From assembly GCF_028641065.1 (NCBI RefSeq), contig NW_026576619.1:310001-374000 (forward strand): 64,000 nt of DNA, in the 5' to 3' direction. The notes below the pieces were generated by a model that did no database searches, had not been told where the DNA came from, and saw only the letters and a list, made by a program, of their open reading frames with translations. Of the stretch, positions 2,060 to 17,559 are shown piece after piece (position 1 is the first letter of the stretch; every line of letters begins with the position of its first letter). Origin of the DNA: Leucoraja erinacea (lineage: Eukaryota). The position numbers and the translations under genes were made by a program.

Positions 2060-3000
2060 AGGAACTGCAGATGCTGCTTTACACCGAGCATAGACACAAA
2101 ATGCTGGAGTAACTCAGGGGGGCAGGCGGCATCTCTAGAGAGGAGTGGGTGACGTTACTGGTCGAGACCCTTCTCCATCTACCTCGGGCATCTTACACCC
2201 CAGCGCTATGAATATTGACTTCTCTAATTTCAAGTAATCCTTGCGAATCCTCTCTCTCCATCTCTCCCCCATCTCCAACCAGTAAATGTTACCTTTTATG
2301 CCTCGTGGTCTATTCCAATAATCTATTCTAAGATAGACACAAAATGCTGGAGTATCTCAGCGGGACTGGCAGCATCTTTGGAGGAAGGAATTGGTGACGT
2401 TTTTGGGTGGGGCCCTTTGCCTGAAGAAGGGTCTCGACCAGAGACGTCACCCATTCCTTCTCTCCAGAGATGCTGCCTGTCCCGTTACTCCAGCATTTTT
2501 GTGTCTAACTTCGGTTTAAACCAACATCTGCAGTTACATCCCACACTATTACCTACTATACATTTTCCTTGAACTACATCCCCTTTGATCTCTCGTTTGC
2601 ACACCTTGCCCTTTCATGTCTCTATGCCTCACTCTCCCCTGACTCTCAGTCTGAAGAAGGGTCTCGACCAGAGACGTCACCCATTCAAGTTCAAGTGAGT
2701 TTATTGTCATGTGTCCCTGTATAGGACAATGAAATTCTTGCTTTGCTTCAGCACAACAGAACATAGTAGGGATTAACTACAAAATAGATCAGTGTGTCCA
2801 TATACCATAATATAAATATATACACACATGAATAAATAAACTGATCAAGTGCAAATAACAGATAATGGGTTATTAATAATCAGAGTTTTGTCCGCGCCAG
2901 GTTTAATAGCCTGATGGCTGTGGGGAAGTAGATATTCCTGAACCTGCTTGTCCCTCCAGAGATGCTGCCCGTCCCGCTGAGGTACTCCAGCATTTTGTGG
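2060..3000. mobile_element. Cluster of short non-autonomous Penelope-derived (hammerhead-motif) elements in both orientations, plus a Penelope 3' remnant
   Basis: Repeated AGACACAAAATGCTGGAGTAACTCAG...CTGAAGAAGGGTCTCGAC..AC GTCACCCATTCC units (2421, 2651). The segment at ~2185-2240 encodes LHPSAMNIDFSNFK*, the same terminus as the Penelope ORF fragment at 15.8-16.1 kb. Confidence 0.75.
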
Positions 3001-4413: not shown

Positions 4414-7400
4414 ATGGCAGCTACGGAGCGGATGCCCGAGCGCCGCAGGCAGTGCATGTTCCGCCTCGAACTTCCAAAACTGCCCGTTCCGCAAACTAGC
4501 GCGGAAAGTCCGGGGCAACAACGTTTATGGTGAGGACTCGGCCCGGGACAGGTCGGGACAGGTCGGGTCGGGAGAGGGTGGGGAGGGGAATGGTAAGGGG
4601 GGGGGGGGGCGGGAGACGGTCGGGTGGGTCCGTGGCCCCGGGGGTCGGGCGGTGGGTCCGTGGCCCCGGGGGTCGGGCTGGGCTCTGTCCTTGACGACCC
4701 ACCGTCAGACCCGCAACAAACGCGGCCCGGTTTTGCGGAAGTTTGTCCCGCTGTGACGTGGCCAACCCGGCCTGTTGACAAAACATGCAGGTGAAACTCA
4801 GCGGTTGATGCAGCTTCTGTGGAGCCAAGGAAATAGGCGACGTTGCGGGGCCGGTGACGGAGCAGCAGCCGGTCCCTGGGCAGTTTTCCTGCACACCTCC
4901 TCTCCCCCCCCCCCCCACCTTCAGAGCGAGTCGAGGGGGGGGGGGGGGGTGAGGTTTGGGAGTTTGTTTTGCCCCCCCCCCCAGGGCCTCTGTGCAGAGC
5001 TGTGACCCCCTCCCCTCCGTTTAAAAACCCGCCCCCCCTAGAGCTGAGCGGGGGATCCGTGAACTACCCCCCCTCCCCCTCCCCCCCAACCCTCACCCCC
5101 CCCCTCCCTCACCCCCCTCCACCTCACACACTCACCCTCCCCTCTCCCCCTCCCTCCCTCCCCTCTCTCACCCCACCCCCACTCCTCCCAATCCGTCCTC
5201 CCCTCACCCCCCCCTCCTCCCCCCCCACCCTTCCTACCTCCCCCACTCTCCCTACTCCCCTACCTCACCCCCCCACCCCCCTCCCTCCCTCACCCCCCCC
5301 CCCACTATCCCCAATCCTCCTCCCCTCACCCCCCCTACCCTCACCCCCACTCTCCCTACCCCATCCTCCCCCCCCCCCCCCCCCCTCCCTCCCTCACCCC
5401 CCTCCCGCCCCTCCCACAGCGCGGCGCTCCCTCACTCCCGCCCCCCCCACAGCGCGGCGCTCCCTCACTCCCACAGCGCGGCGCTCCCTCACCGCCACGC
5501 CTCCCACAGCGCGGCGCTCCCTCACTCCCACAGCGCGGCGCTCCCTCACTCCCGCCCGGGAGTTGTCAGGCCGTGAGCGGGAAGTTAGTGTCGGTAAATC
5601 CGTGAGCTCCGGGCAGCGCCAAAACGGGGGCGGGGAACAGCAACTCTCCCCGCCCGGAGGAAGCGAGCGAGGGAGGGAGGGAGGGAGGGAGGGAGCGAAC
5701 GGGGGGGGGGGAGAAGGAGGGAGGGAGCGAGGGGGGAGAGGCGAGAGGAGGAAGGACTGGTCTCCGCGGGGCTGGCGGACCGATGGCAGCTACGGAGCGG
5801 ATGCCCGAGCGCCGCAGGCAGTGCATGTTCCGCCTCGACTTCCAAAACTGCCCGTTCCGCAAACTAGCGCGGAAAGTCCGGGGCAACAACGTCTATGGTG
5901 AGGACTCGGCCCGGGACAGGTCGGGACAGGTCGGGTCGGGAGAGGTGGGGAGGGGAATGGGAAGGGGGGGGGGGGCGGGAGACGGGCGGTGGGTCCGTGG
6001 CCCCGGGGGTCGGGCGGTGGGTCCGTGGCCCCGGGGGTCGGGCTGGGCTCTGTCCTTGACGACTCACCGTCAGACCCGCAACAAACGCGGCCCGGTTTGC
6101 GGAAGTTTGTCCCGCTGTGACGTGGCCAAACCCGGCCTGTTGACAAAACATGCAGGTGAAACTCAGCGGTTGATGCAGCTTCTGTGGAGCCAAGGAAATA
6201 GGCGACGTTGCGGGGCCGGTGACGGAGCAGCAGCCGGTCCCGGGGCAGTTTCCTGCACCACCTCTCCCCCCCCCCCACCTTCAGAGCGAGTCGAGGGGGG
6301 GGGGGGGGTGAGGTTTGGGAGTTTGTTTGCCCCCCCCCCCAGGGGCCCTCTGTGCAGAGCTGTGACCCCCTCCCCTCCGTTAAACCCGCCCCCCCTAGAG
6401 CTGAGCGGGGGATCCGTGAACTACCCCCCCTCCCATCTCCCCCAACCCTCACCCCCCCCCTCCCTCACCCCCCTCCTCCACCTCACACACTCACCTTCCT
6501 TCCCCCTCCCCCCCCACCCTCCCTCTCTCACCCCACCCCCACTCTCCCAATCCGTCCTCCCCTCACCCCCCTTCCTCACCTCCCCCCCACCCTTCCCTAC
6601 CTCACCCTACCTACCTCACCCCACTCTCCCTACCTCAACCCCCCACCCCCCCTCCCTCACCCCCCCCCCCACTATCCCAATCCATCCTCCCCTCACCCCC
6701 CTACCTCACCCCCACACTCTCCCTACCTCACCCCCCCACCCCCCCCCTCCCTCACCCACCCCCCCCCCCCACTCTCCCAATCCATCCTCCCCTCAACCCC
6801 CCCCCCCCCCTCCCGGGGAGGCTCCGGCCATGTCCTCGAGTCTGACCACTTCTCTCCCGCCATTGCAGACGTGCCGACGGTGCCCGCGGGGAGTGTGTCT
6901 GACCGGTGGAGCCCCTTCAACACGGTCTCCGGGACTTTCCCGCCACCCGAGGCGCTTTCTCCCGCCCACCCTTTCCCGTCGCTGCCGCCGCAGCCGCTGC
7001 CACTCGGCCCACAGACCGGCGGCTTCCCCGTCCACCGGGCCCACGTGGAACTCAACCGGGCGCCGAGTGACTCGAGTGTGGGTGAGTTTACAGATGTAAT
7101 GCTGACAGATTTAAGGCCACATTTAGAGTTCCGGGCACCATGTTATAGGGAAGATGTTGTCAATCGGTTCAGAGGAGATTCACGAATAAGTGACGTTTCG
7201 GATCGAAATCCTTCTTCAGACTGACGGTGACGTTTCGAACATTATCTGCATGGTGTCAGATTAGGAGAAGGGGAGATGCAACAAGACCTTGTACACCAGT
7301 CACTGAAAGTAAACATGCAGGTATAGCAGGCAGTGAAGAAAGCTAATGGCATGTTGGCCTTCATTGCGAGGACTTGAGTTTTGGATCAAGGAGGTCCTAC

Positions 7401-10972: not shown

Positions 10973-13900
10973 CTAGTTGATGGGCCGGTAGCCGGTGAGA
11001 TCTCGCCGCCGGCGGACAATGTTGACGACCAGACATCCCACCAACAGCCCGAGCGCCGGTAACCCGAGCCCCACCGCCATCAACCCCCCGCCACAACCAG
11101 CACCGAGAACCAGTCCCGTGGCGGCTCCCCCTGGTCCCGATCAGCCGCCGACCTGCGGTGCGGGGGGGAGAAACAGCGGGTGACGTGGATCCGCCGGCAG
11201 AAGCCCCGCTCCCTCAATCCCCCCCAACCACCCATCCCCCCCCCCCACCCCTCTCTCCCCACCAACCCCTCTTTCCCCCCCCCACCCCCCCCCTACTCCC
11301 CCCCCTTCCCCTCCCCACCTCTCTTCCCCCCCCACCCCTTCTCCCCCCCCAACCCCTCTCCCCCCCCCAACCCCTCTTCCCCCCCCACCCCCACTCTCCC
11401 TCACCCCTCTCTACCTCCATCTTTCTTCTTCCCCACCCCACCCCTCTCTCCCTCCCGCGCCGTCGCACCCCGGAAAAGCCGGCACATTCCCACCCCCCCT
11501 CCCCCCCCCCCCAACTTTCGCCTCTGCCCATCCCCTCTCTCTGGTCCCTACCCCCCGACCACCTGTCTCCGCTCCACCCCCCCCCACTCCCCGAGTCCCC
11601 CCCCCCTCCACTCACCAGCTGAGGTAGAGGTGCTCTCTGTACAGCCTCTGTCCCGGGCTGCCGAAGGACACGTTGAGCGCGGCGAGGCGGGCGGTGCGGG
11701 GCCCGGGTTCGGTGCCGATGAAGGCGAAGGCGATGCTGGCGACGGGGAGACGCTGCCGGGATTCGCGGGGGCCGCAGCGCCGAGTTGTGGGTCTGCATGG
11801 AGTCGCTGCGGCGCGGTCGTCGGGCGCCATAAGCCACGGGTTTCCACTGAAGGAAACTGGAGACGCGACTGGCGTTGTCTCGGAACGATAGCAGCTCTCT
11901 GATACCTGGGGGGGGGGGGGGGTAGATCCTTCAGTGAGGTCCCCATCACCCCCCCCCCCCTCCCCTCACCACCCCCTCCTCCATCACACCACCACCCCCC
12001 CCTCCATCATCTCACCCCCCCCCTCCATCACCCCCAATCATCACAACAACACCTATCACCCCCCCCTCCATTCACCCCCCCCTCCATCACCCCCCTCCAT
12101 CATCTCACCCCCCCTCCATCACCCCCCCCATCCATCACGTTCCCCCCTCCATCACCCCCCCCCCCCCTCCATCACCCCCCCCCCACTCTCACTACCCCCT
12201 CCATCATCTCACCCCCCTCCATCACCCCCCTCCATCACCCCCCTCCATCACCCCCCCCATTTCCCCCTCCATCACCCCCCCCTCCATCACACCCCCCAAC
12301 CCCCATCACGTTATCCCCCCTCCATCACTCCCCCTCCTACCCCCTCTCATCGCCAGCAGCTACTGGGGGAGGGGGCGGAGCAGATCCTTCAGTGAGATCA
12401 AAGGGCGGGAGGTGGCGCCGGGGGTTGGGAGGGAGATGAAGGGGGCAGTGGGCGGGGAGAGCTGGATAGGGGGAGGGGGAGTGTGTGGGAGGAGGGGGAA
12501 TGAGTGGGAGGGAGGTGCGAGGAGGGGAGGATGAGGGGAGGGGGGAGGAGAGGGGAAGGGGAGGGGAGGGGGGGAGGAGGGGGAGGGGGGAGGGGGAGGG
12601 GGAGGGGGAAGGTGAGAGGGGGGGTGGGAGGTGGGTGGAGAGAAGGTGAGAGGGGGAGGGGGTGGGAGGTGAGAGGGGGGGAAGGCGGGCGGTACCTTGA
12701 AGACGCACCCCGGGCGTGTGTATCTCTCATCGTCGATGGCGGAGCGGACACGCAGCCGCCGCTCGCTGCCCGCTCCCTCCAACACCAGCAGCTCCAGACC
12801 GAAGCGGGAGAAGTTACCCCGCGGCCGCAGCCCCTCGATGCTGAACTCCAGCTTGGAGCAGTTGGCCGAGTGGAGGAGACGAGGCAGCTCCGGGTCCCGG
12901 CCCGATCCCTCGAACGCCGCGATCTGACAGCGACAGAAACCTGGGTCATCACGGGGAGAGACGGCCTCTAAACGGCCTCGACCCCCGTCCCGTCACCCCC
13001 ACCTCCTGACCGGGGGTCAGTCACAAAGTGTAGCCCTCTCTACCCCGTCCCGTCACCCCCCCCCCCCCCCCACCCGGGGGGTCAATCACAAAGTGTAGCC
13101 CTCTCTACCCCGTCCCATCGACCCTGATCCCACTGAGAATCAAACGTCATAGGTTCACGGTGAAGGGGAAAGGATTTAATTGGAATCTGAGGGGTAACTT
13201 TTCCACACAGAGGGTGGTGGGTGAATGGAACGAGCTGCCAGAGGCGCTGGTTGAGGCTGGGACTGTCCCAACGTTTAAGTAACATGTGGATTGTTAGGGC
13301 AGGTTTGGAGGGATATGGACCGCAGTCAGGTGGGACATGTAGATGGGGCATGTCGGCTAGGGTGGGCAAGTTGGGCCGAAGGGCCTGTTTCCACGCTGTA
13401 TCACTCTGTGACTGATCCTGACTGCGGCTGCTGCCTGTTTCAAGACCCCCCTCACCCCCCTTACCCTGAAGGTGACGCTGGCGTTGGCGAAGAGCGGCGC
13501 GGACACGTTGCGGCCACGTAGTTGGGCGGTCAGCGCGTTGTGGTCCAAGGTGGCGTTAGCATCGTCCCACGTGAAGTCCTGCAGCAGGTAGGGCGGGTAG
13601 AAACTGTCCGGCGGCGCCCGCGACAGGTCGGCCGTGTCATTCACATCATCATATTCCCAGAGCTGGGGGAGCGAGAGAGAGAACGGAGTCGCTACAGACA
13701 CATTGACTCTTCCCCCTCCCCGGGGGCTCAGCCTATCCTGCCTCCCCCCGTTCCCTGATCTCCCCACTCCTTGTTTCCCAGCCTCTCTTACCCTCCCCCA
13801 ATTTCCCCGGATACCAGTCCCCCCATTCTCTGAACCGCCCCCCCCCCCCCCCACCAAGCTCCCCCGCCGCCCCCATTCCCCGGCCCCTCCCGTCCCCACG

Positions 13901-16900
13901 CTCATACGGTCAGATGGGATAGGAGCAGATTTAGGCCATTCGCCCCATCGAGTCTACGGCCATTCATTCATGGCTGATCTATCTCCCTCCTAACCCTCCT
14001 AACCCCATTCTCCTGCCCTCTCCTCGTCGTCCCCCCCAATTTCACCCTTCCCCCACCCTCCCCCCCCACCCACCCCCCTTCCCTAATTCTCCCCCATACC
14101 CTTCCCCCCACCCACCCACTCCCCCCATTCTCCCCCCCGCCCACCCCCTCCCCCCCACTCCCCCCCTTTCTCCCCCCCCCCCCCCCCCCCCCCCCCGCCC
14201 ACCCCCTTCCCCACCTCCCCCCCCCCATCCCTTACCCGGGAGAAGACGATGGCGGTGGAGTAGCGCACGGCGGCGGCGGGTTCGATACGCAGGGCCCCGC
14301 TGGGATGGGGCAGCTGCAGGCTGGTCCAGTTGATGTATAGGGATGTATTGGGGCTGTTGGTGTGGACAAGTAGCACGGTGGGGGCACCGAGCGAACTCCA
14401 CACATAGTGGATGGTGTCGGCGCGGCCCACGGCCCGGACGTGGAGCACGTTGGGGGCGGCGGCCGAACTGTTCCTTCCTGGGTTGTACTCGAACGTCACC
14501 TGTCAGCGGATGTTCATCAGTTCATTAGTGATAGGAGCAGAATTAGACCATTCGGCCCATCCAGTCTACTCCCCATGGCTGATCTATTTTTCCGGATCGC
14601 CTTTCTAAAATGGAAATTCTTCATCATCACAAATTTCTAAAAGAACGCCTTAAAATCTGAGGTTTTAATTCTCTGGTCCAGAAGACTCTCTCACTAGGTG
14701 GAAACATGTAGCTCTTAGGGCCCATGAATCAACTCTATTCAGGCCTGGGGTACTGATTTTCTGTAGCCATTTCATATTGAGGTTGGTCCATCAAGGGCCA
14801 AATTATCTCTGCATCTATTTTGCCATTGATTCTAAAATAAATTCTCATCATACATTTGAACGTCCTTAAATCTGAGGTTTAAACATCTCACTTACTAGTG
14901 CTCACATTCTCCACATCCACTCTGCTATGTATTTCATTACAGCCATTTTATCTCTGGGCCGATTATATATCCCGACCTAAACAACCCACGTCAGATTACT
15001 TATCCCATTCTACACATTTTAATCTATATGGGATAGTCCCAGACTCAACTACCTCCTCTGGCAGCTTGTTCCACACACCAACCTGTGTGAAAACTTTACC
15101 CCTCAGGTTGGTATTAAATATTTTCCCCTTCACCTTAACCATATAACCATATAATAATTACAGCACGGAAACAGGCCATCTCGACCCTTCTAGTCCGTGC
15201 CGAACACATAATCTCCCCTAGTCCCATATACCTGCGCTCAGACCATAACCCTCCATTCCCTTCCCATCCATATAACTATCCAATTTATTTTTAAACCTAT
15301 GTCCTCTGGTCTATTTTTGGTAGAGTCCAGCATCTGCAGTTTGTTCCTGCACATTCTGTCTACATTGACATCCAAATCACAAACAGATCCATCCCTGCAG
15401 AACACCACTGGTCACTGAGTATTGACCTCCCACTATAGCCCTCAGCTTCATTCAGTCAGGCAGTCTCGTGATGGGGAGGGTGGACTGTGGTCACATTAGG
15501 AGGGGGAGGGGGTCAGTACTGACCACAGAGTCTCAACGTGATCTCACCCGCCAGTGTGAGTCAGCAGTCACATCTTTCCGGATAAAACTTCCTCATTTTG
15601 GACACATACCACAAGTGTCACAAATCACATGTTGAATGCGATTAGTGTAAAACTGGCATAATGGCCAGCATGGACATTGTGGGCCAAAGAGTCTGCTCCT
15701 GTGGTGTTGGGTTCTAGGACATTATCGCTGGATGATAAGTCGAGGGCAACGCTGACCAGACATGGGGTAACACCTGTCCCTATATCTCATCCCACGACTC
15801 TGTCCAAGGACCCTGTCAGTCTTCTCAGGTGAGGCAGAGGTTCACTTCACCTCCTCCAACCTGATCTACTGTATCCGTTGTTCCAGGTGTGGACTCCTGT
15901 ATATCGACGAGACCAAGCGCAGGCTTGGTGATCGTTTTGCTGAACCCTCCACTCAATCCGCCTAAACCTGTTTCAACTCCCCCTCCCATTCCCACACTGA
16001 CCTTTCTGTCCTGGGCCTCCTCCACTGTCAGTGAGACCCAACACAAATTGGAGAAACAGCACCTAATTTTTCGCTTGGGCAGCTTCCATCCCAGCGGTAT
16101 GAACATTGACTTCTCTAATCCTTGCTTTCCCTCTCTCTCCATCCCTCCCTCATCTTAATTCTCCAACTAGTTTCACTGACCTCCTGATTAAATATTACTG
16201 ATCTTAAGCCTCATTGTCACCTTCCCACAGCTAATAATGAACCATTCGACATTGCCTTGGTCACCGTCTCCTTTGATATGTATTTTCACATATTACCCTT
16301 CCTTATCTCTATGACTCCCTTTCCCCTGAGTCTCAGTCTGAAGAAGGGTCTCGACCCGAAACATCATCCATTCCTTCTCTCCAGGGATGCTGCCTGACCC
16401 ACTGAGTTAGTCCAGCTTTTTGTGTCTAACTCTCCACTAACTCTGTCAAGTGGCAGAGAATAAGGGGGCGGCCATTTCGGAATGAGATGAGGAAAGTCTT
16501 TTTCACCCAGAGAGTTGTGAATCTGTGGAATTCTCTGCCACAGAAGGCACTGGATGTTTTCAAGTTATATTTAGCTCTTAGAGCTAACGGAATCAAGGGA
16601 TATAGGGAGAAAGCAGGAACGGGGTACTGATTTGGATGATCAGCCATGAACACATTGAATGGTGGTGCTGGCTCGAAGGGCCGAATGGCCTACTCCTGGA
16701 CCTATTATCCACGTTTCTATGACCAGTGACTCACTCTCGTATCCCCCAGACTGAATAATCAGATAACAATCAGATTATCAGCACATCCATTGAATACAAG
16801 CTCAGACCTGTTGTAACAAGAGTTGCAGGCGGGGACGAGGGAAGTGCCGTCAGAGCCAGGGTACTCACCAGCCCCGGGAATAGGACAAGGCGGTTGACAT

Positions 16901-17173
16901 ACAGCCCAGGAACCACCGAACCGACAGGTTACATCTACACAAACTTCCCCCTGATCTGAAGAAGGGCCTCGACCTGAAACATCACCCATTCCTTCTCTCC
17001 GGAGATGCTGCCTGTCCCCTTCTGCTCGGGCGAAGGGTTTGTTAACACCCTCGCCAGCCCGTACCCCCCGCCAGCCCGTACCCCGTTACCTGTCTGCGGT
17101 ACGAGTCGTGTGGCCGCACCAAGCCGGGGATCAATGCAATTAAACAACACATCAGCATTGTAACAGGCGCCAT
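10973..17173 (-). CDS. GLMP: Glycosylated lysosomal membrane protein (NCU-G1/C1orf85). Exons: 17090-17173, 14236-14499, 13465-13662, 12696-12923, 11616-11905, 10973-11152. Exons 5-6 carry frameshifts, probably consensus errors
   Basis: Signal peptide exon MAPVTMLMCCLIALIPGLVRPHDSYRRQ; NVLHVRAVGRADTIHYVWSSLGAPTVLLVHTN; LWEYDDVNDTA...FANASVTFR; PRLLHSANCSKLEF...IDDE; FLQWKPVAY; YLSW; a TM helix and the C-terminal lysosomal motif GYRPIN*. All junctions are GT-AG, and the gene lies between TMEM79 and CCT3 as in human. Confidence 0.93.
13135..13415 (+). mobile_element. CR1 LINE 3' fragment in GLMP intron 3
   Basis: GGGGTAACTTTTCCACACAGAGGGTGGTGGGTGAATGGAACGAGCTGCCAG...GGGCCGAAGGGCCTGTTTCC is the same CR1 tail as elsewhere in the window. 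Confidence 0.8.
15790..16430 (+). mobile_element. Penelope-like element 3' fragment: GIY-YIG endonuclease remnant plus terminal region with a hammerhead motif
   Basis: Translates (with indels) as QVRQRFT..TSSNLIYCIRCSRCGLLYIDETKRRLGDRFAE...HKLEKQHLIFRLGSFHPSGMNIDFSN, followed by CTGAAGAAGGGTCTCGACCCGAAAC at 16338-16362. Confidence 0.88.
16450..16720 (+). mobile_element. CR1 LINE 3' fragment
   Basis: TTTCACCCAGAGAGTTGTGAATCTGTGGAATTCTCTGCCACAGAAGGCA is near-identical to 7750-7800. Confidence 0.85.
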
Positions 17174-17300: not shown

Positions 17301-17559
17301 GAACAAAAGAAGCCGCTTCACGGGGTCTCATGGGCAGCACAGACAAGGCAGACTTCAGAACCCTTTTACCCAAAGATAGACACAAAAAGCTGGAGTAACT
17401 CAGCGGGTCAGGAAGCATCTCTGGCGAGAAGGAATGGGTCACGTATCGGGTCGAGACCCTTCATCAGACCGTTTTCCCCAAGGGGTGTAAATATCCAATG
17501 TCCAGACTCGAGGGCATCGCTGAAAGAGGAAAGTTTAATGGAGGTGGGTCTTGGAGGGG

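What the first reader, a model, noticed from the sequence alone, without database searches (positions are those of the whole stretch)
15790..16430. Abundant short elements carrying a Penelope-type minimal hammerhead ribozyme, linked here to a GIY-YIG remnant
Seen: the motif CTGA(A/T)GA-A-GGGTCTCGACCC-GAAA-CGTC recurs throughout the window (+: 2421, 2651, 16338, 16957, 40536, 48551; -: ~7192, 17440, 38120, 61741; further decayed copies). At 15790-16430 it directly follows a GIY-YIG ORF end (LIYCIRCSRCGLLYI.ETKRRLGDRF). Established: Penelope-like elements carry minimal type I hammerheads with a palindromic stem III that act as dimers, and an extra A after A9 is a known tolerated variant. Inference: the ~100-250-bp elements that look like SINEs are non-autonomous Penelope derivatives (retrozyme-like), present at roughly one per few kb, many inside introns and UTRs of housekeeping genes.
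Basis: partly seen in the sequence, partly recalled or inferred. Interest (0 to 1): 0.7.

Follow-up and report, generated by a model that had tools for sequence, protein, structure and literature searches.

The report
Penelope stubs carrying minimal hammerhead motifs
The motif is a known kind of miniature self-cutting RNA sequence at the end of a Penelope-type jumping gene, and the roughly million short copies in this fish genome are likely by-products that the element's enzyme copied from uncut RNA, not a separate ribozyme-driven element.

Summary
Observation confirmed. Window 15769-16431 is a broken, 5'-truncated end of a Neptune-type Penelope-like element (GIY-YIG remnant, ~220-nt 3' UTR, minimal type I hammerhead motif, tail), lying antisense in what is likely GLMP intron 1; its helix III palindrome is mutated. 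Sister subfamilies encode RT plus endonuclease, and one full-length partial tandem was found. Short copies (680 in 1.2 Mb sampled) are 95-135-nt solos with their own target-site duplications or head-to-head pairs. They match the long elements in consensus and age, rarely form tandem arrays and decay neutrally, so 'retrozyme-like family' is not supported. Their 3' ends fall at two sites (Penelope 'tail'); their 5' ends pile up 1-6 nt before the hammerhead core at an initiator-like TCAGT, not at the cleavage site. Likely they are run-off cDNAs from uncut RNAs beginning there. Against the simplest version: 17 of 19 near-full-length copies read through that edge. Helix I is only 2 bp, no covariation is seen and cleavage is untested. 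Hammerheads in vertebrate Neptune elements are published; this scan reported the same family and the run-off reading before on other DNA of this genome.

The parts
15769..16431 (+). 5'-truncated, decayed copy of a Neptune-type Penelope-like element (subfamily A); no TSD found
   Evidence: 606 of 663 aligned bases match the 20-copy subfamily consensus, which includes this copy; TSD search negative
15769..16119 (+). Frameshifted end of the ORF: end of the cysteine linker and GIY-YIG endonuclease with CCHH residues; YIG changed to YID; stop codon region deleted
   Evidence: this fragment alone has no Pfam hit, sister copies hit GIY-YIG below cut-off
16120..16335 (+). Pyrimidine-rich 3' UTR, ending in the initiator-like TCAGT shared by all subfamilies seen
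16336..16367 (+). Minimal type I hammerhead motif: helix I 2 bp, CUGAAGA, extra A, helix II GGGU/ACCC with CUCG loop, GAAA, helix III mutated (ACAU for ACGU); predicted cut after 16365
   Evidence: sequence
16368..16431 (+). Leader/tail segment ending at the shorter of the two 3' end sites (+93 from C3)
16955..17018 (+). Solo stub, starts at -1, helix III mutated; antisense in GLMP intron 1
17365..17469 (-). Solo stub, starts at -2, core mutated (A14, H17); upstream of the likely GLMP start
2330..2686 (.). Head-to-head pair (2330-2402 -, 2421-2551 +) followed by a same-strand copy (2559-2686); both + cores carry the same GAAA>GAGA change
7184..7224 (-). Only window copy with intact core, helix II (one A-U for G-C) and helix I; truncated at +35
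37041..37178 (.). Head-to-head pair without core, one arm with the long tail; downstream of the first SSR2 AATAAA
38051..38200 (-). Copy with 63 nt of 3' UTR, core mutated (A6)
40453..40764 (.). Head-to-head pair (40453-40527 -, 40531-40666 +) plus a decayed same-strand stub
48549..48642 (+). Solo stub, starts at -2, intact core but helix I lost
61342..61770 (.). Head-to-head pair (61342-61528) and a solo core fragment (61730-61770 -, starts at -2)
11217..17173 (-). Host gene, NCU-G1/GLMP family; the headline copy lies between its likely first exon (ATG at 17173) and the next, antisense to the gene
   Evidence: Pfam PF15065 exons; first exon inferred from a signal-peptide-like ORF ending at a GT

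Best explanation
The motif is the minimal hammerhead sequence in the end repeat of Neptune-type Penelope-like retrotransposons, and the short repeats are likely run-off cDNA by-products of those elements, copied from uncut RNA. Shown: autonomous subfamilies with RT + GIY-YIG carry the motif in both end repeats, 164 nt before the ORF start; short copies have the same consensus and age as long copies, their own TSDs, two 3' end sites about 35 nt apart, and a fixed 5' edge 1-6 nt before the core. Inferred: the RT starts internally at the two tail sites (shown in vitro for an anole element, PMC11167929), copies 95-135 nt, and runs off the 5' end of an RNA that begins at TCAGT, probably a transcription start; the product is pasted alone or joined head to head with a second cDNA. 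The source RNAs may come from any promoter-bearing pseudo-LTR, in trans. Long copies come mostly from longer (tandem read-through or circular) templates or need a template jump. The hammerhead is predicted to work, if at all, only with protein help in the full element; in the stubs it decays neutrally.
For: RT motifs, DKG, CX4CxxC linker, GIY-YIG in one frame; L119 is a direct partial tandem of about 3845 bp. 680 tail-bearing copies in 1.2 Mb; 3' ends cluster at +85-98 and +122-134. Of 198 core-bearing copies 131 are solos or pair arms whose match to the element falls to background between -1 and -6; 61 continue into a UTR; 6 are tandem. Same edge (-3/-2, mixed flanks) in an independent contig set and RNA run. 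5' starts at +27 to +29: 4 of 436. TSDs >=7 bp in 19 of 65 solos, 1.2 in shuffled controls. Short and long consensus equal; nearest neighbour of the same class 107 of 198, null 113. 94 of 134 head-to-head pairs have one long-tail and one short arm, the published Penelope pattern. CpG decay in the core equals that in the tail.
Against: Of 30 young copies holding the ORF start, 19 reach the core and 17 of these (one is the query locus) read through into the upstream copy; only 2 stop at -2/+2, so a monomeric mRNA starting at -3 is not the usual template of long copies. No extra cap-derived G: 4 of 29 AGT-starting solos have G at -4. RNA reads show no pile-up of starts at the edge (fragmented libraries, weak test). 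TCAGT conservation could serve helix I or a splice acceptor instead; its reading as an initiator is a recalled consensus. One long copy (L197) begins at the predicted cleavage site.
Confidence: 0.6

Rival explanations
1. The short copies are by-products of the same element, but the fixed 5' edge is set by an RT pause, a bound protein, exonuclease trimming or an endonuclease cut on a longer RNA or cDNA, not by a transcription start.
For: Long copies mostly read through the edge (17 of 19); no cap G; both subfamily consensuses fold into a hairpin that pairs the core with the sequence behind the cut site and starts a few nt inside the edge.
Against: A pause should stop long copies too; the edge is the same for both 3' start sites (examples); TCAGT is kept across subfamilies whose UTRs do not align.
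Confidence: 0.2
2. The stubs are a self-propagating non-autonomous mini-element with an internal promoter, mobilised in trans by the Penelope protein (SINE-like).
For: Fixed ends and own TSDs; about two short per UTR-bearing copy; D. virilis Penelope has an internal promoter (PMC2377424, passages).
Against: No private variants, no clustering of short with short; both subfamilies A and B yield stubs that mirror their long copies.
Confidence: 0.12
3. They are retrozymes: tandem units processed by dimeric hammerheads into circles and reinserted.
For: Intact minimal motifs are abundant (45 in 1.2 Mb, 0-1 in 5 shuffles); 76 of 680 copies have a same-strand neighbour within 40 nt; retrozymes related to pseudo-LTRs are reported in vertebrates, one chondrichthyan included (bioRxiv 2026.07.22.740005).
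Against: Copies are not cut-site-to-cut-site units; 5' ends avoid the cut site; only 2 close same-strand pairs of intact cores among 58; double-hammerhead fold about 21 kcal/mol above the predicted minimum.
Confidence: 0.05
4. The motif only looks like a hammerhead and is kept for another role (promoter or protein-binding site).
For: No covariation beyond independence in helix II; helix I 2 bp; no Rfam hammerhead match at E<=1.
Against: All conserved core letters, the extra nucleotide, the G-C closing pair and the palindrome match the published consensus, at the expected place; A-to-B changes keep pairing (U-A to U-G twice) and a cleavable triplet (GUC to GUU).
Confidence: 0.03

Closest known systems
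Minimal type I hammerheads in pseudo-LTRs of metazoan PLEs (Cervera and De la Pena 2014, PMC4209133; parts 1-2 of 4 of the text read, supplements not seen)
   Same: Core, extra nucleotide after A9, G10.1-C11.1, palindromic helix III, place in the pseudo-LTR, most motifs as single dispersed copies tied to truncated elements; reported for Xena, Poseidon and Neptune of fishes.
   Different: Helix II only 4 bp and helix I 2 bp (2 bp as in D. virilis); about 37 strict motifs per Mb in my sample, roughly 80,000 if extrapolated, against about 4,000 in coelacanth and 9,000 in Xenopus (other descriptor); fixed 5' edge of the stubs not described in what I read.
EN+ Penelope-like elements, Neptune type (Craig et al., bioRxiv 2021.04.23.441226, 12 passages; Arkhipova et al. 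2013, PMC3846280, 9 passages)
   Same: RT + C-terminal GIY-YIG, DKG, CX2-5CxxC linker, CCHH, partial tandems, inverted 5' copy, 30-40-nt tail on one end, TSDs, solo pseudo-LTRs, initiator-like motif in the pseudo-LTR.
   Different: Extreme excess of 95-135-nt stubs; leader is non-coding (ATG 164 nt after C3), whereas the A. vaga pseudo-LTR and the anole hammerhead overlap the ORF start; the rotifer paper ascribes solos to recombination or deletion, here many have their own TSD.
Poseidon-Ac of Anolis (Frangieh et al. 2024, PMC11167929; parts 1-2 of 4 read, supplements searched with no hit)
   Same: Two internal RT start sites that define the tail; uncut RNA is the template; no reads ending at the hammerhead cut; hammerhead needs protein.
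   Different: Other clade; tested in vitro there, not here.
Non-LTR retrozymes (Cervera and De la Pena 2020, PMC7229834, 12 passages; Li et al., bioRxiv 2026.07.22.740005, parts 1-3 of 5)
   Same: Short, non-coding, type I hammerhead, related to PLE pseudo-LTRs.
   Different: Retrozymes are tandem repeats of 150-450 bp with a motif in each unit, processed to circles; these copies are solos or head-to-head pairs with PLE-type ends.

Membership tests
EN+ Penelope-like element, Neptune type | One ORF with RT and C-terminal GIY-YIG | tested here: met
   729-844-aa frames hit RVT_1 and GIY-YIG, both under Pfam's cut-offs; shown for sister subfamilies (about 80% DNA identity to the window copy over the endonuclease); the window copy holds only the end
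EN+ Penelope-like element, Neptune type | DKG motif, CX2-5CxxC linker and CCHH in the endonuclease | tested here: met
   features named
EN+ Penelope-like element, Neptune type | Pseudo-LTRs as partial tandems or inverted copies, optional 30-40-nt tail | tested here: met
   L119 direct; L117, L125, L127, L135 inverted; 17 tandems; two 3' end clusters
EN+ Penelope-like element, Neptune type | RT phylogeny within Neptune | not tested
   No labelled reference set; nearest named relatives are uncharacterised shark and ray proteins at 64-73% identity
PLE minimal type I hammerhead | Conserved core, extra nucleotide, G10.1-C11.1, palindromic 15.2-16.2 | tested here: met
   Consensus of both subfamilies; not met by the copy at 16338
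PLE minimal type I hammerhead | Formable helix I | tested here: inconclusive
   2 bp paired in 90-92% of 61 UTR-bearing copies, third and fourth pairs 5% and 3%; not the predicted fold
PLE minimal type I hammerhead | Covariation in helices | tested here: not met
   Pairing equals independence in 199 helix II sequences and 9 aligned copies; copies are dead and closely related, so the test is weak
PLE minimal type I hammerhead | Self-cleavage as dimer or with protein | not testable with these tools
   No end pile-up at the cut site in 3 RNA runs, a weak test
Non-LTR retrozyme | Tandem array with an intact motif in consecutive units | tested here: not met
   2 same-strand distances under 200 nt among 58 intact cores; head-to-head 268, same-strand neighbours 76, of 680
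Non-LTR retrozyme | Unit-length linear and circular RNAs | not testable with these tools
   No suitable library
Non-LTR retrozyme | Own lineage apart from the autonomous element | tested here: not met

The most novel reading that the evidence does not exclude
The million stubs are the Penelope counterpart of retroviral strong-stop DNA: they map the element's transcription start to the first bases of the hammerhead, and long copies rebuild their pseudo-LTR by a template jump (or a circular template) across that edge, which most near-full-length copies complete. That would give a testable model for how Penelope end repeats and partial tandems arise, with the hammerhead uncut during copying.
Probability: 0.3. 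Interest if true: 0.62.

Novelty: new member of a known kind. Interest (0 to 1): 0.35.

Why it matters
As a ribozyme finding it is ordinary: such motifs are published for fish Neptune elements. It matters for annotation (about 5-6% of sampled bases, that look like SINEs or MITEs are Penelope ends) and because the ends of so many copies are a natural record of where the RT starts and stops, bearing on the open questions of how pseudo-LTRs form and what the hammerhead does. The young subfamily (copies 97-99% alike, frames over 800 aa) would suit in vitro work.

Tried and rejected
Rfam scan: no hammerhead model matched at E<=1. Spliced-leader idea (CAG|U just before the core, as in D. virilis): solo flanks share no upstream exon and no clear match to the element body; no GT..AG joint ending there among the 15 joints listed (123 not shown): unsupported. 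Cap-G signature: absent. Selection against active ribozymes: G>A excess at core CpGs is matched by a tail CpG: rejected. Independent palindromic MITE (junction with an extra A, 4 loci): flanks are shared too, so it is a passenger in a larger repeat. Sequencing-run search: no RNA holder listed; laid runs are of coded organisms that may not be this species, strandedness unknown, so strand ratios (near 1:1 on the stub, about 4:1 on the ORF in X21; about 3:1 on the stub in X23/X24) were not used. Orientation test in introns: only 5 copies placed, 4 antisense, too few. PDB sequence search: nothing. One search had helix I mis-registered and was redone. Literature: no paper with 3 of 'Penelope-like, solo pLTR, strong stop, hammerhead'; 'Penelope + strong-stop' gave 1 unrelated listing; searches for chondrichthyan Penelope gave listings only, not read. 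Repbase and Dfam could not be searched, so the family may already be named there; bioRxiv supplements were closed and may list it.

Full report
Observation. The motif is real: 10 matches at up to 3 mismatches, none in 100 shuffles, and 37 related fragments in the window. The window is G000:C1438:310001-374000 of a 2.19-Gb genome; the nearest named protein relatives are from sharks and rays. Positions below are counted from C3 of the core.

The linked element. Window 15769-16431 matches the consensus of 20 related loci (itself included) at 606 of 663 bases: end of a cysteine linker, a frameshifted GIY-YIG domain with YIG changed to YID, a 3' UTR of about 220 nt, the motif and a tail to +93. Other copies extend into RT motifs. 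A protein search gave 112,346 first-look candidates. A younger subfamily B has frames of over 800 aa with DKG, YIDD, CX4CxxC and YIGET; locus L119 is a direct partial tandem of about 3845 bp with the ORF start at +164, and several loci carry an inverted 5' copy. These are the features given for Neptune-type elements (passages). No RT tree was built. At least six UTR types converge on TCAGT plus the core. The headline copy lies antisense between the likely first and second exon of a GLMP gene, so that gene's pre-mRNA does not carry the hammerhead strand.

The motif. Both consensuses have CUGAAGA, an extra A, a 4-bp helix II closed by G-C, GAAA, palindromic ACGU and GUC or GUU, as in the published minimal motif. 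A strict descriptor found 45 hits in 1.2 Mb against 0-1 in five shuffles, all of this family type. Helix I is 2 bp. The hammerhead fold is not predicted: helix II pairs have probability near 0 in both consensuses, a competing hairpin dominates, and the double-hammerhead lies about 21 kcal/mol above the minimum. There is no covariation beyond independence; A-to-B changes are one-sided and keep pairing. Rfam finds no hammerhead. In the window only 7219 and 48551 pass the descriptor; 16338 has lost the palindrome. Core CpGs decay like a tail CpG. Low in vitro activity and protein dependence are reported for related motifs, so weak folding does not exclude a role in the full element.

The short copies. 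In 120 arbitrarily placed 10-kb stretches (richer in small chromosomes than the genome) there are 680 tail-bearing copies, 0.57 per kb; 0.37 per kb in the 20 large-chromosome stretches: about 0.8-1.2 million by extrapolation, pair arms counted singly. 268 are head to head, 14 tail to tail, 76 have a same-strand neighbour; 94 of 134 pairs have one long-tail and one short arm. 3' ends cluster at +85-98 and +122-134, like the two internal RT starts of the anole element. Of 198 copies with a recognisable core, 71 are solos, 60 pair arms, 6 tandem, 61 UTR-bearing; in solos the match is 85% at -1, 72% at -2, 62% at -3, 41% at -4, 35% at -5 and background beyond (a few copies may be misclassed). The same edge shows as loose ends with mixed flanks in a contig set and an RNA run. 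Only 4 of 436 starts fall at +27 to +29, the cut site. 19 of 65 solos have exact TSDs of 7 bp or more, against 1.2 in controls, so many are insertions in their own right. Short and long copies share consensus and divergence in both subfamilies and are intermixed. Close tandem pairs of intact cores are rare (2 among 58).

Mechanism. The simplest account is internal RT initiation at the tail sites on an uncut RNA whose 5' end lies just before the core, with run-off and insertion alone or as a head-to-head pair. TCAGT fits an initiator consensus (recalled; an initiator-like TCACT is noted in a rotifer pseudo-LTR; D. virilis has an internal promoter). Against it: no cap G, no start pile-up in fragmented RNA libraries, and 17 of 19 near-full-length young copies that reach the core read through it (30 examined of 40 listed), against 61 of 198 overall. 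Long copies therefore come from longer or circular templates or need a template jump; a pause or cut at the edge remains possible. One long copy starts at the predicted cut site, which may be chance.

Comparison. It works like, and by the tested features is, a Neptune-type Penelope element with the known minimal hammerhead. It fails the retrozyme tests that could be run (tandem units, own lineage; definitions). I wrote the run-off idea down before looking at earlier notes; one search showed that this scan had reached the same reading several times on other DNA of this genome (119 notes fit the look-up). Those notes are not independent support. My searches found no paper that states the run-off model, but Repbase, Dfam and closed supplements were not seen.

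Verdict. Real, abundant, a new member of a known kind. Interest 0.35; the fixed 5' edge and the read-through of long copies are the parts worth testing.

Noticed in passing
L197 (G000:C12:56126258-56129784): A young copy holding the ORF start begins at the predicted hammerhead cut site (+28); 1 of 30, possibly chance.
   Followed up: no
L200, L214, L219: Three of 30 ORF-start-bearing copies begin at +132 to +139, right where the long tail ends.
   Followed up: no
L101:9535-9549 region, L098:8351-8365, L099:9773-9787: Subfamily B head-to-head pairs share one junction inside the near-palindrome that spans helix II and GAAA.
   Followed up: partly
L065, L093, L098, L137: One palindromic pair with an extra A in the core is carried inside a larger, unrelated repeat with shared flanks.
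   Followed up: yes
subfamily consensuses, +2 to +44: Both subfamilies are predicted to fold the core against the sequence behind the cut site, a possible off-switch hairpin; a minor cluster of 5' starts lies at +40/41.
   Followed up: partly
window 37658-37729 (-): tRNA gene, anticodon TCC (Gly), 63.6 bits.
   Followed up: no
window 11217-36314 and 60653-61072: GLMP (-), a CCT chaperonin subunit (-), SSR2 (+) and a WRNPLPNID-domain ORF (-).
   Followed up: partly
window 4778-4849 and 6143-6214: Identical decayed fragments 1365 bp apart, suggesting a local duplication.
   Followed up: no
L044:6131-7438: A 436-aa frame that looks like the endonuclease start of a LINE ORF2 (recalled, not scanned).
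   Followed up: no
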